From Escherichia coli (lineage in GTDB: Bacteria; Pseudomonadota; Gammaproteobacteria; Enterobacterales; Enterobacteriaceae): a stretch of DNA of 64,000 nucleotides. Positions within the stretch are counted from its first letter, which is position 1. The number at the start of each line of letters is the position of its first letter. The stretch lies in NCBI RefSeq assembly GCF_030013205.1, contig NZ_CP122648.1. One strand, written 5' to 3'. The position numbers are program-made. Of the stretch, positions 22,301 through 28,300 are shown piece after piece.

Positions 22301-25300
22301 TTCAATATCACCCATTTCATAAAAATTTTTTACAATCGTTTTTCCAATCTGAGAGAACAACATAACCACCGGTGGAGTTTCTGGATGCCAGTATTCATTA
22401 GCTAATGAGACTGTCTCAGACAAAACAGTGGAAAACGATGCCATTTTTTCTATATAATTAGCAATATATTGGTTCATTACTTGCCTCCCAAAGCATTCTG
22501 TAAATCCTGAAGAACGTTTTCTGCTGCTGCTCGATCCCCTGGAGATGCTGTTGGATTCTTATCCAACCAATCCTGTAAAGCCCTTGTATAATCCTGTGCT
22601 TTCAATACATGTCCTCTACCACCAACTTTTTCACCTGTGGCCAATTCATAACGAACAGCATCTGCTGTGCTTCCACTTCCTACTTTTGCATTTGGCCGAT
22701 AAAGATCGTCTATAATATTTTTCAAATTTGAATCTGTAACGTCAGGTTTTCCCATCTTCTGTCGCAATTCATCTTTATACCGTTCATGCTGCATACGATC
22801 TCTTGCGCTATTCTCATCTTCTGGTCCCCATCCTCCCGGGCTTCCCGTACTGCCACCACCCAGGCAGTTCTTCTCTTCCTCCGTCAAATCCTTCCCGACA
22901 TTTGGATTCTCTTTTGATGAATCATCATTTCCAAACACGCTGGAAAAAGCACCATAGGGATCTCGCCAGAATTCCATTTGACTTTGTGCATTTAATAATT
23001 CGGCTTCACCCTGCATCTCCATACTTTTCTCAATCGCGTCCCCAACAGCCTCGCGATTGTTGTATATTATTATACCACCACCAATAACCACCGTACCGAC
23101 TGCCGCACCGACTAACATCCCCGGAGGGCCTCCTACCGAACCGATCTCTGTACCTACTTCAGAACCAGTTCCCATGGCAGTTAATGCTCCTGCGCCCAAC
23201 GCCGCACTTAATCCCAGCGGATCCAGCCGTTGCACCGGGTTCAGTGGATACGCATACAGGTTCCATCCCCCCTTCAGCCCAATCGGATCCTGGGTGATAT
23301 ACCTCCCCTGTAGCGGGTCATAGTACCGGTGACGGTTGTAGTACAGCCCCGACTCCTCATCATACTGCTGCCCCGGCAGACGGAGTGACTGTTGAAGGTG
23401 CTGCGTGCTTTCCTCTCCCAGCAGGTTTCCCCACTCGTCATACTCCCCGCGCCACGCCGTTTCCCCTTCCGGGCTGATAAGCGCCTGCGGCAGCCCACGG
23501 TGGTCACAGTGGTAAAGATGAAGTTTCCTCTCCGGGATGTATTCCGCCTCCAGTTGCGCCGCCATCTGTTCCGCCGTCAACCCACACTGTGCAAGCCACT
23601 GCTGGCTTTCTTCACTCACGCTGCCCTGCCGCAGTTCCCGCTCCAGCCTCCCCAGCATCACCGCCAGCTCCGCCGGTAGCGTCACACCCGTGTCCTCCTG
23701 CAACACCTCCGCCAGGCTACGGTGCCGCGCCTTCGCCTGTTCGCCATTCTCTGTTTCGATTCTCAGGAGCGGCGTGAAGCTCCCCGGCTGGTATACCGTC
23801 TGGATACGCGTGGTGTCGGTCTGTACCGTCGTCAGCCTGTCGCCGTCCCACCCGTACCAGGTCACCTCCGGTTTACGCGACAGCGACATCCACCCCGTCA
23901 GGTCACGCTCCCGCCGCCACACCCGTTTTCCCGTCCGGCGGCCCAGCGGGTCATAGAGGTAGCGGCTCTCCACCTGTGGCTCGCCGTGCTGTATCCGCGT
24001 GTAGAACACCAGGCGGTGCTGGCTGTCGTAATGGTAGTGGTGCGTCCGCTCGTCGTGCATCCGTATCACCCCTTCCGGGATACGGTCCGTCTTCTCCGCC
24101 AGCCTGCCGTATTCATCGTAGCGGTAGACATAGTGCGCATCTTCCGTGATGCGGTTATCCGGCCATGCCGTGAGGGTGCTGTCCGGGTGCAGTTCCGGGG
24201 CCGGCAGCCGGTTTCCTGCCGGGTCCGTCGCATACGGGATATCAATGTCCAGGTTCGCTGCCGTGGTGTGGACGCCCGTCAGCCTTCCCGTGTCGCTGTA
24301 ACGGTACTCCCGGCTCTCCTGCGGGCCGCTGATGCGAATTAGCTGTCCGTTGTCGTTCCAGTCGTAGTCACGGTCAAGCTGCGGAAGGTTCAGGTGCCTG
24401 CTCCGGAGCTGGCCGCTGGTATTCCAGGCGGTGGCAAGCTCATATGCCTCCCCGCCGAAGCTGCGGGCCGTCTCACGGTGCAGCCGGTCCCGCGTGTACT
24501 CGACCAGTGGCGTACCACCCAGCTTCATTCCCGCAAGATAACCGCTGCCATACGTCAGCCACTCCACCGGCGGCAGACCGTCCGGCTCCTGACGGGTCGC
24601 CAGCCCCTGTTCGCTGTACGCGTGCTTCGTCTCATGCTCCCACAGCATCTCCCCCGTCTCCGGGTTAACGTGGTTAATTACTACTTACAATGACCTGCCG
24701 TTAATCCCAGACAGGCAGATGCAACTCACTTCACGGAACCGCATCATTTTTCAGTATTTTTTACATACAAACCGAGCTAGAATTTACGGTTGTCGTAAAA
24801 ACTATTTTTAAAATCATTAAATCTCTTATTCAGCAATAAGTTAATAATATATATCTGGATAACCATACCCAACTGTTCAAAGTCCGTATTGCCTCCATAA
24901 AATGGCCAAAGCTGAATCATGAATAAATATTGTATTTATCCTTTCTGAATTATCATTTTGATAATTTTTGAGATATTCCTTAAAAATACCCACTTAATCA
25001 ATCACAAAACAAATATATAAACAATCAATCATCAAATTAGCTTATGTTTAATGAAATTATTTTATAATTCAATAAGTTACATAAATGCTCTATATTTAAA
25101 TTATTGCCATAATACACCTGACGCGAATTGCACAGGTTCACACAATCTATTTAACGCTTGCAGAACACCCCTCTTTACGATCGATAAAAAGTCCTTTTCT
25201 TATTTATTTTGAAGCGTAGAATGCGGGGTGATGAAGGAGTGGTGATTTTATTTTCACCGCCATTATGGCGGCATTGCCGATATTTTTTTGCGGTACAAAT

Positions 25301-28300
25301 ATGCCGTGTTCATGGCCTGTACGAGATAACATGACGGATCACTTTTATGAGCAAAAAATTTGAAGGCAGCGTCGCGCCTCGCGAGCGTATTAATATATCG
25401 TATGTCCCAAAAACAGATGGCCAGACGGCTGAAGTTGAACTTCCGCTTAACATGCTCGTTGTCGGCGATACCGGAAATACGCAGGAAACATCCCCACTGG
25501 ATGAACGTCAGGCAGTTTCCGTTAACAAGCACAATTTCGGTGCAGTGATGGCTGAAGCAGCCATTGGCCTCAATTTTACTGTCCCCGCCACGCTGAAGGG
25601 AAGCACAACAGACGATGAACTGAATGTGGCGCTGAATATCAAATCACTGGATGATTTTTCACCAGATAGCGTGGCCCGGCAGGTTCCGGAAGTGAATAAA
25701 TTGCTGGAACTGCGTGAAGCACTGACTGCGCTGAAGGGGCCGATGGGCAACCTTCCGGCATTCCGTACCCAGCTCCAGGCATTGCTGGAAAATGAAGAGT
25801 CCCGCAAGCAGTTGCTCAAAGAAATCGGCCGGGTGAGCAATAAATAACCACCGCTATTTCATTAAACAGGGTTATCCAGGCATGACGGCACACAAAAATA
25901 TCTCCGGGACATACCACCTCTCTGTTGCAGACATTCTGCAGGTGGTTTACCAGGTATGTTTCAGCCCGTCCGTTGAAATCAACCAGGATGGTGTGGCTGC
26001 GCTGATTACAACACTGGATCGCCGTATCAGTGATCTATTGGATGAGATTATCCATTTTTGTGAGTTTCAGCAGAGCGCGTCGCACTGGCAGCGCGTACTT
26101 CACTGATGGCGAAAAGCCGGTTTCAGAAACACAGCTAAAACAGAAGGATTTTCAGTATGTCTTTACAGGAAGAGGAACTCGTTTCCAGTCATGCCGAGCA
26201 GCCTGAGCAGGCATCGTCGCTGCTTGATCAAATCATGGCACAGACCCGTATTCAGCCCGGTTCGGAAGGTTATGACGTTGCCCGCCAGGGTGTGACAGCC
26301 TTTATTGCCAGCATCCTGCAATCCACTGCATCTGCCGAACCGGTCAATAAACTGGCCGTGGACAGCATGATTGCAGATATTGATGAACGCATCAGCCGCC
26401 AGATGGATGTCATCATCCATGCGCCTGCCTTTCAGCAGGTCGAGTCGTTCTGGCGCTCACTGAAAACCATGGTGGATCGCGTTGATTTCCGTGAAAACAT
26501 CAAGGTCAACGTGCTTCATGTCACCAGGCAGGAACTTCTGGAAGACTTTGAGTTTGCGCCAGAAATTATTCAGTCCGGATTTTATAAGCACGTTTATTCG
26601 TCCGGTTTCGGACAGTTTGGCGGTGAACCCATCGCTGCCGTGCTGGGCGCTTATGAGTTCAAAAATACCGCGCCTGACATGAAACTGCTGCAATACGTCA
26701 GTGCCGTGGGCGCAATGGCGCACGCACCGTTCCTGTCCTCCGTTTCCCCGGAGTTTATGGGGCTGAACTCGTGGACCGAACTGCCTAATATCAAAGATCT
26801 TTATGCCATCTTTGAAGGTCCGGCCTACACCAAATGGCGCGCCCTGCGTGACTCGGAAGATTCGCGCTATTTAGGGCTTACGGCACCCCGCTTCCTGCTT
26901 CGCCAGCCCTATTCACCAACAGATAACCCTGTTAAGAACTTTAACTATCACGAAGATGTCAGCCGGAACCACGAAGATTATCTGTGGGGTAATACGGCCT
27001 GGATGCTGGCGTGCAATGTCGCAGACAGTTTTGCCAAATACCGCTGGTGTCCAAACATTATCGGTCCGCAAAGCGGCGGCGCAGTGAAAGATCTGCCGGT
27101 GCATCTGTTCGAAACGATGGGGCAGATTCAGGCCAAAATCCCAACCGAGGTGCTGGTCACCGATCGCCGCGAATTTGAACTGGCTGAAGAGGGTTTTATC
27201 ACCCTTACCATGCGTAAAGACTCTGATAATGCAGCCTTTTTCTCTGCAAACTCGGTACAAAAACCGAAGCACTTTCCGGGAAAAGACGCAGAAACCAACT
27301 ATAAGCTGGGTACGCAGCTTCCTTATCTCTTCATCATCAATCGGTTAGCGCACTACATCAAGGTGTTGCAGCGTGAACAACTGGGGTCATGGAAAGAAAG
27401 GAGCGACTTAGAAAGAGAGCTTAATACCTGGATCCGTCAGTATGTTGCCGACCAGGAAAACCCGCCTGCGGACGTGCGCAGCCGTAAACCTCTGCGCGCT
27501 GCCAAAGTTGAGGTTATGGATGTGGAAGGCGAACCCGGCTGGTACCAGGTCGCGCTGAGCGTGCGGCCCCATTTTAAATTTATGGGGGCAAACTTTGAGC
27601 TTTCCCTGGTTGGCCGGTTAGACAGGGAGTAACACGCCATGATACCGGATCGGGAAAGAACCACAGGTTCTCTTTTTGAGCGTATGGAAGCCTCACCGGC
27701 CAGAAACCGGCAGGGAAGCAGTATTCATGCGCTCAGGCAGTCCATTCGCCAGAACCTGCGAAACATTCTTAATACCCGGTCCGGTAGTTGCCGGGGTGCG
27801 CCTGAACTGGGCATTGATGAACCGGAAGGGGCTGAAAACTTCCGCGAATCAATGAGCCGGGCCATCGCGCAATGTATAGAACGCTATGAACCCCGGCTCT
27901 CACACGCTGAAGTGCAGGCTGTGGTTTCATCCGCCGCCAGCCCGCTGGATATGACGTTTCATATTACAGCCTGGGTGACATTTAACGAAACGCATGAAGT
28001 GCTTGAATTTGATATGGCACCGAATGGCAGCCAGCATTACCGGGTGGACTGACAGATGGAATTTGAAGAACGCTATTTCCGGGAAGAACTCGATTACCTG
28101 CGCCAGCTCAGCAAGCTGCTGGCAACGGAAAAACCCCATCTGGCCCGCTTCCTGGCCGAAAAAGATGCGGATCCGGATATTGAACGCCTGCTGGAAGGCG
28201 TGGCTTTTCTTACCGGCAATCTTCGCCAGAAAATTGAGGATGAATTCCCAGAACTGACGCACGGGCTTATTAAGATGCTGTGGCCTAATTACCTGCGTCC

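What the first reader, a model, noticed from the sequence alone, without database searches (positions are those of the whole stretch)
24685..25346. About 660 bp AT-rich non-coding spacer upstream of tssB containing a 15-bp palindrome
No ORF is present and base composition is strongly AT-biased between the truncated Rhs and tssB. The palindrome CCGCCATTATGGCGG (25257-25271) lies about 75 bp upstream of the tssB start and is a candidate operator. The AT-rich tract is a plausible target for nucleoid-protein silencing. The region probably also marks where vgrG and the rhs 5' part were lost.
Basis: inference. Interest (0 to 1): 0.35.

Follow-up and report, generated by a model that had tools for sequence, protein, structure and literature searches.

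The report
Truncated T6SS-2 hcp–tssB divergent promoter
The AT-rich spacer is the already-studied, H-NS-silenced two-way promoter region of the E. coli type VI secretion system 2, cut short at one end by a deletion, and the 15-bp palindrome in it is a minority, lineage-variable sequence rather than a conserved operator.

Summary
CCGCCATTATGGCGG lies at 25257-25271, 75 bp before the tssB ATG (25347). The spacer has 33% G+C, with a minimum of 21%.

The window is E. coli, 100% identical to a swine ETEC/O139:H1 lineage. In intact relatives this DNA is the ~696-bp divergent intergenic region between hcp and tssB of the T6SS-2 island. That region has been studied in EHEC and S. sonnei as a bidirectional, H-NS-repressed promoter.

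In the window a deletion fused an internal rhs site to the hcp leader. The junction is GTT at 24664-24666, within an imperfect 9-bp microhomology. It removed the hcp ATG and Shine-Dalgarno sequence, hcp, vgrG and the 5' part of rhs. It kept 680 bp (24667-25346). Only 17 of 2,453 E. coli records share this junction.

The palindrome is not conserved:
- Only 132 of 2,228 E. coli genomes carry the exact 52-nt segment around it.
- Most genomes have 5-bp arms, and O157:H7 has a broken stem.
- It is absent in E. albertii, Salmonella-type, C. farmeri and Superficieibacter homologues.
- The window holds 12 palindromes of this class, against about 8 expected by chance.

The real phylogenetic footprints lie elsewhere, at 24917-24941 and 25162-25222. 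They include predicted -10 boxes for hcp and tssB.

Verdict: ordinary and already known. The operator idea is not supported.

The parts
22477..24666 (-). 5'-truncated rhs remnant: RHS core plus C-terminal toxin region. The mechanical ORF runs from ATG 24648 and gives 723 aa.
   Evidence: ORF list and translation. Pfam RHS and RHS_repeat hits. PGAP pseudogene 'missing N-terminus' ending at the base equivalent to 24666. rhs homology to L003 ends at 24666.
24658..24666 (.). Deletion junction. CTCCGGGTT in rhs meets CTCCTTGTT in the hcp leader. GTT (24664-24666) is the exact shared triplet.
   Evidence: Three-way comparison of the window, the rhs of L003 and the intact promoter of L003. Alignments A1 and A2. 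The junction is shared by only 17 records at >=99% identity out of 2,453.
24667..25346 (.). Retained 680 bp of the ~696-bp hcp<->tssB divergent intergenic region, the T6SS-2 bidirectional promoter region called 't6sP' in EHEC.
   Evidence: Annotated intact loci. 2,228 E. coli genomes carry the region at 94.7-100% identity. S. sonnei reporter primers match both ends. The EHEC literature covers it.
24917..24941 (-). Best-conserved block, TCATGAATAAATATTGTATTTATCC. It holds a predicted leftward (hcp) -10 box, TACAAT, at 24934-24929, and the AT-rich palindrome ATAAATAttgTATTTAT.
   Evidence: 20 of 20 columns identical to E. albertii. Largely kept in Salmonella-type loci, where the -10 reads TATAAT. 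Promoter scan. The promoter role is an inference.
24948..24966 (.). AT-rich palindrome AATTATCAtttTGATAATT. It looks like a Fur box but is not significant.
   Evidence: The best Fur-consensus match in the spacer is 13/19, reached in 38% of shuffles. The left arm is not conserved in E. albertii.
25162..25199 (+). Conserved upstream block AGAAyACyCyT...AAAAAGTnCTTyTC. It includes TCGATAAAAA, which matches 8 of 10 positions of the H-NS high-affinity motif.
   Evidence: Alignment of nine loci. 16-18 of 20 columns identical to E. albertii. Motif scan.
25217..25222 (+). Predicted tssB promoter -10 box: TAGAAT here, TAAAAT in most E. coli, E. albertii and Salmonella-type loci.
   Evidence: GTAAAATG is conserved across E. 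coli, E. albertii and four Salmonella-type loci. This is an inference; no transcription-start data were available.
25219..25246 (+). Tandem 14-nt direct repeat GAATGCGGGGTGAT / GAAGGAGTGGTGAT.
   Evidence: the repeat finder family D2. Not conserved in E. albertii.
25257..25271 (.). The reported 15-bp palindrome CCGCCATTATGGCGG.
   Evidence: Alleles are listed, population frequency and pair counts.
25266..25289 (+). Weak terminator-like hairpin (TGGCGGCATTGCCG) followed by ATA and a T7 run. It overlaps the right arm of the palindrome.
   Evidence: Scan: 2 sites found against 0.8 +/- 0.9 expected. The stem is weakened and the T-run shortened to T6 in the majority allele, and to T4 in E. albertii.
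25241..25316 (+). Predicted RNA pairings of a hypothetical tssB leader: 25241-45/25254-58, 25259-63/25312-16 and 25268-74/25301-07. They use both halves of the palindrome with other partners.
   Evidence: MFE -35.6 kcal/mol, z = -2.59. The same fold appears in five E. coli alleles. 100% of cells are paired, against 85.7% for the palindrome, with no compensatory changes.
25347..25847 (+). tssB, the T6SS sheath small subunit.
   Evidence: ORF. PGAP annotation. Homologues carry PF05591.

Best explanation
**What the spacer is.** It is the divergent hcp<->tssB regulatory region of the E. coli T6SS-2 island (yafV...aspV). It has lost 16 bp at its hcp end to a microhomology-mediated deletion. That deletion removed the hcp ATG and Shine-Dalgarno sequence, hcp, vgrG and the 5' part of rhs, and joined the region to an rhs C-terminal fragment.

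**How it most likely works.** These steps are inferred from footprinting and from the EHEC literature; they are not shown here.
- Two back-to-back sigma-70 core promoters sit about 290 bp apart. The leftward one has -10 TACAAT at 24934-24929. The rightward one has -10 TAGAAT at 25217-25222 and a poor -35, so it probably depends on an activator.
- They flank an extremely AT-rich core with 21-29% G+C. H-NS nucleates and spreads on that core and silences both directions.
- In this lineage the island is decayed. The promoter region is therefore a relic. Its leftward promoter now points into the rhs-CT remnant and the putative immunity gene.

**What the palindrome is.** It is a lineage-variable G+C-rich inverted repeat. 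It lies about 28-42 nt downstream of the predicted tssB transcription start. It is most likely neutral, or at most part of leader RNA structure. It is not a conserved protein operator.
For: **Identity and context**
- 100% match to swine ETEC genomes. 2,228 E. coli genomes carry the region.
- Intact loci show hcp(-) and tssB(+) about 696 bp apart.
- The same divergent layout, with a 550-650-bp AT-rich spacer of 29-33% G+C, occurs in E. albertii, Salmonella-type loci, C. farmeri and Superficieibacter.

**Junction**
- Resolved to GTT at 24664-24666.

**Literature**
- H-NS repression and the bidirectional promoter in EHEC (PMC13141884; PMC5363993).
- The same region was used as a two-way reporter in S. 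sonnei (PMC10924462).

**Footprints**
- Blocks 24917-24941 and 25162-25222 are conserved, and both -10 boxes are kept.

**Decay of the island**
- tagH has an internal stop. tssH is truncated and fused to a VasL remnant.

**Palindrome**
- Five alleles appear among 11 E. coli-type sequences.
- The exact segment is in 132 of 2,228 genomes.
- It is absent in other genera.
- Four variable sites fall in its 15 bp, against about 1 expected from the region's average.
- It is not a repeated element.
- It is one of 12 such palindromes in the window, against about 8 expected.
Against: - No transcription-start data could be read. Kim et al. 2022, J Microbiol 60:928, is not held. The two promoters and the +28..+42 position are therefore predictions.
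- The generic promoter scan gave no more hits than shuffles: 3 against 3.1.
- H-NS binding was not tested here. The motif enrichment is trivial in AT-rich DNA.
- A G+C-rich dyad in this AT-rich tract is rare in shuffles, at 0.85%.
- Its outer 5-bp arms CCGCC/GGCGG are kept in most E. coli alleles. A weak lineage-specific function is therefore not excluded.
Confidence: 0.75

Rival explanations
1. The palindrome is an operator bound by a dimeric transcription factor that represses or activates tssB.
For: - Perfect 7+1+7 dyad, 75 bp upstream of tssB.
- G+C-rich dyads are rare in shuffles of this AT-rich tract, at 0.85%.
- The outer 5-bp arms are kept in 5 of 6 E. coli alleles.
Against: - The perfect dyad is in at most a minority of genomes. 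The exact 52-nt segment is in 132 of 2,228.
- The A-T pair at positions 6/10 is broken in 5 of 6 alleles. The C-G pair at positions 4/12 is broken in O157:H7.
- There is no counterpart in E. albertii, Salmonella-type, C. farmeri or Superficieibacter promoters.
- It lies in a poorly conserved stretch.
- It does not match the two consensus motifs I scanned, Fur and CRP.
- It is predicted to lie downstream of the transcription start.
Confidence: 0.08
2. The palindrome region is part of a structured tssB 5' leader RNA of about 117 nt. The leader acts after initiation, through mRNA stability, start-codon occlusion, CsrA or sRNA access, or weak attenuation at the hairpin plus U-run. The two halves of the palindrome pair with other segments rather than with each other.
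For: - MFE -35.6 kcal/mol, z = -2.59; 3 of 200 shuffles fold as well.
- The same three helices are predicted in five E. coli alleles.
- 100% of cells are paired across 6 distinct alleles. Two one-sided changes are compatible with pairing: C->U giving U-G, and G-U->A-U.
- The palindrome hairpin has only 85.7% of cells paired, with broken pairs.
- A terminator-like hairpin plus T7 lies at 25266-25289.
- An ANGGA motif lies upstream of tssB and CsrA effects on this island have been reported, though not on tssB itself (PMC13141884).
Against: - It is not known that this DNA is transcribed.
- There are no compensatory double changes.
- The sequences are 95-100% identical, so conserved pairing is uninformative.
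- E. albertii folds differently, at -19.5 kcal/mol, and lacks the 5' partner strands.
- Salmonella-type leaders lack the segment altogether.
- The terminator stem and U-run degrade in the majority allele.
- There is no Rfam match.
Confidence: 0.14
3. The hairpin plus T-run terminates a small + strand transcript, such as an sRNA or a leader peptide mRNA, made inside the spacer.
For: - A terminator-like site lies on the + strand.
- A 41-aa ORF lies at 25209-25334 and a 32-aa ORF at 25265-25363.
- A -10-like box lies about 60 nt upstream.
Against: - Both ORFs are frameshifted by the T7->T6 change in the majority E. coli allele and by 4-nt indels in E. albertii.
- The stem has only 3 G-C pairs plus 2 G-U pairs (as a tri-loop hairpin, 4 G-C pairs), and the U-run is offset by 3 nt.
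- There is no Rfam family.
- The number of terminator-like sites is within chance.
Confidence: 0.03

Closest known systems
[quoted passage not shown]
   Same: - Orthologous DNA: 95.5% identity over the tssB-proximal 247 bp.
- Same flanking tssB operon and same AT-rich core.
- H-NS-repressed, and silent in vitro according to the literature.
   Different: - The window lacks the hcp3 side. The last 16 bp, hcp3 and vgrG3 are deleted, and the region abuts an rhs remnant.
- The palindrome allele differs: the window has CCGCCATTATGGCGG and O157 has CCGCCATCAAGACGG.
S. sonnei T6SS intergenic bidirectional regulatory region (PMC10924462)
   Same: - The reporter primers CGTTAACAAGGAGTTTACAAATG and TAACATGACGGATCACTTTTATG match the two ends of the intact form of this region.
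- That study predicts two promoters plus H-NS and CRP sites, and finds very low native activity.
   Different: - The window has lost the sequence AAGGAGTTTACAAATG at the hcp end.
- No reporter data exist for this allele.
APEC T6SS2 hcp2B-vipA divergent promoter, bound by CpxR-P (PMC6534853)
   Same: - Same architecture, with the hcp operon and the vipA/tssB operon transcribed in opposite directions.
- The primers show related sequence.
- CpxR-like GTAAA-N7/8 pairs lie on the hcp side of the window's spacer.
   Different: - It is a divergent allele whose primers are not identical. I did not retrieve its sequence.
- CpxR affected the hcp operon, not vipA.
H-NS-silenced T6SS promoters in general, for example Salmonella SPI-6 (Brunet et al. 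2015, cited in PMC5363993)
   Same: AT-rich, horizontally acquired island promoter silenced by H-NS.
   Different: A different T6SS cluster and a different promoter sequence. The resemblance is functional only.

Membership tests
E. coli T6SS-2 hcp<->tssB bidirectional promoter region | Lies immediately upstream of tssB of the yafV-aspV T6SS-2 island | tested here: met
   Annotation of the identical genome K_EC180: yafV ... rhs remnant | spacer | tssB-tssC-tssE-F-G ... tRNA-Asp.
E. coli T6SS-2 hcp<->tssB bidirectional promoter region | Flanked on the other side by a divergently transcribed hcp | tested here: not met
   hcp is deleted in the window and the spacer abuts rhs at 24666/24667. The feature is met in intact relatives. 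The window therefore holds a truncated derivative.
E. coli T6SS-2 hcp<->tssB bidirectional promoter region | Sequence orthology to the characterised EHEC and S. sonnei regions | tested here: met
   94.7-100% identity over 25100-25346 in 2,228 genomes, including O157:H7. The S. sonnei primers match.
E. coli T6SS-2 hcp<->tssB bidirectional promoter region | Promoter activity in both directions | not testable with these tools
   I have only predicted -10 boxes conserved across genera. Published reporters show very low native activity.
H-NS-silenced AT-rich regulatory DNA | G+C content far below the genome and its flanks | tested here: met
   33% overall, minimum 21%. Flanks are 50-67%.
H-NS-silenced AT-rich regulatory DNA | H-NS occupancy and derepression in an hns mutant | not testable with these tools
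   Reported for the EHEC orthologue (PMC5363993; PMC13141884). Here there are four matches to TCGATAAATT with at most 2 mismatches in 680 bp, against about 0.9 expected from the window average. That enrichment is trivial in AT-rich DNA.
Palindromic operator of a dimeric transcription factor | Dyad symmetry | tested here: met
   Perfect 7-bp arms in the window.
Palindromic operator of a dimeric transcription factor | Dyad conserved in orthologous promoters | tested here: not met
   The dyad is broken or shortened in most E. coli alleles and absent in other genera.
Palindromic operator of a dimeric transcription factor | Match to a known binding consensus | tested here: not met
   The Fur and CRP consensus scans found nothing at the palindrome. 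Other factors could not be tested for lack of matrices.
Intrinsic terminator / attenuator | Stable G+C-rich stem directly followed by a U-run, conserved among relatives | tested here: not met
   The stem has 5 pairs, of which 3 are G-C. The U-run is offset by ATA. The stem is weakened and the U-run shortened in the majority allele and in E. albertii.
Structured regulatory 5' leader RNA | Folding energy beyond shuffles, with covariation supporting the helices | tested here: inconclusive
   z = -2.59. 100% of cells are paired, but there are zero compensatory changes among 6 alleles. The structure is not conserved in E. albertii. There is no Rfam hit.

The most novel reading that the evidence does not exclude
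In E. coli proper, the tssB leader acquired an extra segment of about 40 nt (25226-25300). This segment folds with the conserved 3' leader into a three-helix structure. The structure could occlude the start-codon region or create a weak attenuator. That would add a post-initiation layer of T6SS-2 control on top of H-NS. The 'palindrome' would be only the by-product of two strands that each pair elsewhere. This could help explain why promoter activation alone gives poor T6SS-2 output in EHEC.
Probability: 0.1. Interest if true: 0.4.

Novelty: already known. Interest (0 to 1): 0.1.

Why it matters
The finding matters little beyond annotation.

- It identifies the spacer as a truncated copy of a promoter region that is already under experimental study in EHEC, S. 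sonnei and APEC.
- It shows that the island in this swine ETEC lineage is decayed: hcp3, vgrG and tssM are missing and tagH is broken.
- For people working on T6SS-2 regulation, the cross-genus footprints are better targets for mutagenesis than the palindrome. These are 24917-24941, 25162-25199 and the -10 box at 25217-25222.
- The allele series at 25257-25297 offers natural variants for testing a possible effect of leader RNA structure.

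Tried and rejected
- **Fur box at the AT-rich palindrome 24948-24966.** The best match to the 19-mer consensus in the spacer is 13/19, reached in 38% of shuffles. The left arm is not conserved in E. albertii. Rejected.
- **CRP site at GGTGA-N8-TCACC (25241-25258).** The spacing is wrong (N8, not N6) and the match is weak. Rejected.
- **Sigma-28, sigma-32 and sigma-54 promoters near GCCGATAT or TTGAAG.** By inspection the partner elements are absent. Rejected; this rests on inspection only.
- **Leader peptide or small ORFs in the spacer.** They are frameshifted by indels in relatives. Rejected.
- **REP or other repeated element.** The 15-mer and CCGCC-N5-GGCGG are unique in the window. 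Rejected.
- **Rfam families.** None matched at E <= 1.
- **Reading the key transcription-start mapping paper (Kim, Lee and Yoon 2022).** It is not held. The supplements of the EHEC dRNA-seq paper are not held either.
- **The genome-contig scan with TssB.** It gave only two loci. I obtained more distant homologues through protein look-ups instead.
- **Retrieving the APEC-type T6SS2 promoter from E. coli genomes.** The attempt returned only window-type loci among the top rows.

Full report
**1. Observation**

The window reads CCGCCATTATGGCGG at 25257-25271, with 7-bp arms around a central T. The tssB ORF (166 aa, PF05591 family) starts at 25347, 75 bp downstream. G+C falls from 60-67% in the rhs remnant to 21-34% across 24700-25100. 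It rises again to about 50% in tssB. The spacer as a whole has 33% G+C. Only short ORFs of 30-53 aa occur in it. One coordinate needs changing: rhs-derived sequence runs to 24666, so the spacer starts at 24667, not 24685.

**2. What the DNA is**

The segment 24600-25400 is 100% identical to a group of swine ETEC / O139:H1 E. coli chromosomes. In the identical genome K_EC180 the order is as follows:
- fadE, ivy, yafV
- an ISAs1 transposase pseudogene
- a 125-aa gene
- an rhs pseudogene annotated 'missing N-terminus'
- the spacer
- tssB, a 74-aa ORF, tssC, tssE, tssF, tssG, tagH (internal stop), tssJ, tssK, tssL
- a truncated tssH fused to a VasL remnant
- hcp ... tRNA-Asp

This is the T6SS-2 island at aspV, in a decayed state.

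In intact relatives the same DNA lies between a divergently transcribed hcp and tssB, which are about 696 bp apart. vgrG and rhs lie beyond hcp. 2,228 of 5,426 complete E. coli genomes carry the tssB-proximal 247 bp at 94.7-100% identity. O157:H7 is among them at 95.5%.

**3. The deletion**

Three sequences were compared:
- rhs of strain AJ1: ...CGTCTCCGGGTT|CTCCACC
- the intact promoter: ...AAACTCCTTGTT|AACGTGG
- the window: ...CGTCTCCGGGTT|AACGTGG

The join is therefore at GTT (24664-24666). It sits inside an imperfect 9-bp microhomology, CTCCnnGTT. The deletion removed the hcp start codon and its AGGAG ribosome-binding site, then hcp, vgrG and the 5' part of rhs. It kept 680 of about 696 bp of the intergenic region. 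Only 17 records share this junction at >=99% identity. Other lineages carry different deletions; AJ1, for example, keeps hcp but lacks vgrG.

**4. What is known about the region**

- The EHEC orthologue is described as an 'unknown bidirectional promoter' (t6sP) between hcp3 and tssB. It is silent in vitro and H-NS is reported bound there. Predicted factor sites could not be linked to any inducing condition (PMC13141884).
- hns deletion raises z0264 (tssB; called 'hcp-2' in that paper) transcript 60-fold (PMC5363993).
- The same intergenic region was cloned in both orientations as a reporter in S. sonnei. The primers match the two ends of the intact form of the region (PMC10924462).
- CpxR-P binds the hcp side of the related APEC T6SS2 promoter (PMC6534853).
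- A 5' RACE study exists (Kim et al. 2022), but I could not read it.

The AT-rich tract as a nucleoid-protein target is thus established knowledge for the orthologue. I did not test it here.

**5. Conservation of the palindrome**

Among 11 E. coli-type sequences the 15-mer has five alleles:

| Allele | Strains |
|---|---|
| CCGCCATTATGGCGG | window, WP4, a Citrobacter-labelled MAG |
| CCGCCATTAGGGCGG | 266917, RM9975 (also UTME-7, an error-prone assembly left out of the 11) |
| CCGCCATCAAGGCGG | AJ1, PSJ-14, 2014C-3097, 2014C-4135 |
| CCGCCATCAAGACGG | O157:H7 |
| CCGCTATCAAGGCGG | ESY002 |

- The inner A-T pair is broken in 5 of 6 distinct leader alleles. One stem pair is broken in O157:H7. 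Overall 85.7% of cells are paired, with no compensatory change.
- The exact 52-nt segment 25239-25290 occurs in 132 of 2,228 genomes. 876 genomes differ at 1-2 positions and 1,220 at 3-5.
- Four of the 15 positions vary, against about one expected from the regional average of 45 variable columns in 704.
- In E. albertii (TssB 92-93% identical) the aligned segment is not palindromic.
- Salmonella-type loci (TssB 73-75% identical), C. farmeri and Superficieibacter lack it altogether.
- Identity to E. albertii is 8 of 20 columns around the palindrome. That is among the lowest values outside a 42-bp indel.

**6. Chance**

- Palindromes with arms of at least 7 bp and loops of at most 10 occur in 58% of dinucleotide shuffles of the spacer.
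- Those with G+C-rich arms occur in 0.85% of the shuffles.
- Any such palindrome occurs in 6.4% of shuffles of the local 147 bp.
- The window contains 12 perfect palindromes with arms of at least 7 bp and a loop of 0-1, against 8.1 +/- 2.7 in block shuffles.
- The 15-mer is unique in the window and is not a repeated element.

**7. What is conserved instead**

Alignment of nine loci from five taxa, together with the windowed identity to E. albertii, shows sharp footprints:
- 24756-24775
- 24906-24943, with 20 of 20 columns identical. The core is TCATGAATAAATATTGTATTTATCC.
- 24953-24975
- 25162-25222: AGAAyACyCyT, then AAAAAGTnCTTyTC, then GCGTAaAATG
- 25301-25346

On the minus strand the core block reads TACAAT. 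Salmonella-type loci read TATAAT. This is a good -10 box for a leftward hcp promoter, and the scan also found it. GTAAAATG gives a conserved -10 box (TAGAAT here, at 25217-25222) with a poor -35, as expected for an activator-dependent tssB promoter.

From these I infer the following model:
- Two back-to-back core promoters sit about 290 bp apart.
- They flank the most AT-rich DNA of the region.
- The tssB transcription start lies near 25229.
- The palindrome then lies at about +28 to +42.

None of this is verified by transcription-start mapping.

**8. RNA-level alternatives**

- A hypothetical leader (25229-25352) folds to -35.6 kcal/mol, with z = -2.59.
- In this fold the two halves of the palindrome pair with other segments rather than with each other. 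The helices are 25241-45/25254-58, 25259-63/25312-16 and 25268-74/25301-07.
- The same helices are predicted for five E. coli alleles.
- They are 100% paired across six distinct alleles. Two one-sided changes are compatible with pairing. There is no double compensatory change.
- The structure is absent in E. albertii.
- A weak terminator-like hairpin plus T7 lies at 25266-25289. It degrades in the majority allele.
- Rfam finds nothing.

These readings remain possible but weak.

**9. Other motifs**

- Fur: the best match is 13/19, which is within chance.
- CRP: no convincing site.
- H-NS high-affinity-like decamers: four with at most 2 mismatches.
- CpxR-like half-site pairs: two, on the hcp side.

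**10. Verdict**

The finding describes a real feature, but an ordinary and already-studied one. It is the T6SS-2 divergent promoter region, here truncated and attached to a decayed island.

- The silencing interpretation agrees with published work on the orthologue.
- The deletion interpretation is confirmed and refined.

My interest score is low. The only mildly novel residue is a possible E. coli-specific structured tssB leader.

Noticed in passing
window 25882-26106 (+): The 74-aa ORF between tssB and tssC is annotated as hypothetical. It gives weak hits to the N-terminal segment of TssC/VipB (PF05943, E = 0.0026; TIGR03355, E = 5e-4). A 70-aa counterpart is called in a Salmonella-type locus (L006 3034-3246). 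It looks like a relic or paralogue of a TssC N-terminus.
   Followed up: partly
window 25347-~39700; L020 (NZ_CP062203.1 3950900-3976000): The T6SS-2 island of this lineage is decayed. tagH has an internal stop (ORFs 30956-31264 and 31283-32257). tssH (clpV) has lost its 3' end and is fused to a VasL remnant, so the tssM region is missing. hcp3 and vgrG are also deleted.
   Followed up: partly
window 22100-24666 (-): The rhs remnant keeps an ORF of 723 aa starting at ATG 24648, preceded by GGAGACGGGGGAG. It contains the RHS core and a C-terminal region weakly similar to part of CdiA-CT tRNA nucleases (PDB 5j43 and 8zyc, E ~ 7e-6). A 125-aa putative immunity gene follows (weak DUF7674 hit). After the deletion both genes lie directly downstream of the predicted leftward hcp promoter, which may keep them transcribed.
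   Followed up: partly
window 24917-24941: The 25-nt block TCATGAATAAATATTGTATTTATCC is 100% identical in E. albertii and largely kept in Salmonella-type loci, inside otherwise fast-evolving AT-rich DNA. It resembles an ARG box (TGAATwwwwATTCA). On the minus strand it carries a TACAAT/TATAAT -10 box. It is a better regulatory candidate than the reported palindrome.
   Followed up: partly
window 24748-24764 (-) and 24795-24812 (+): Two CpxR-like pairs of half-sites (GTAAA-N7/8-GTAAA, one mismatch each) lie on the hcp side of the spacer. CpxR-P binds the hcp2B promoter of the related APEC T6SS2 (PMC6534853).
   Followed up: no
window 20914-21879 (-): An ISAs1-family (H-repeat) transposase ORF lies next to the rhs remnant. 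PGAP marks it as a pseudogene with an internal stop in the identical genome. This is typical of Rhs element ends.
   Followed up: no
L025 (NZ_CP010228.1 3177319-3181675): In E. coli strain S3 the gene divergent from tssB is a long 'TssD' of more than 550 aa, that is, an Hcp with a C-terminal extension (an evolved Hcp). In that strain tssB and the 74-aa ORF are followed directly by a VasL remnant. This is another independent decay pattern of the same island.
   Followed up: no
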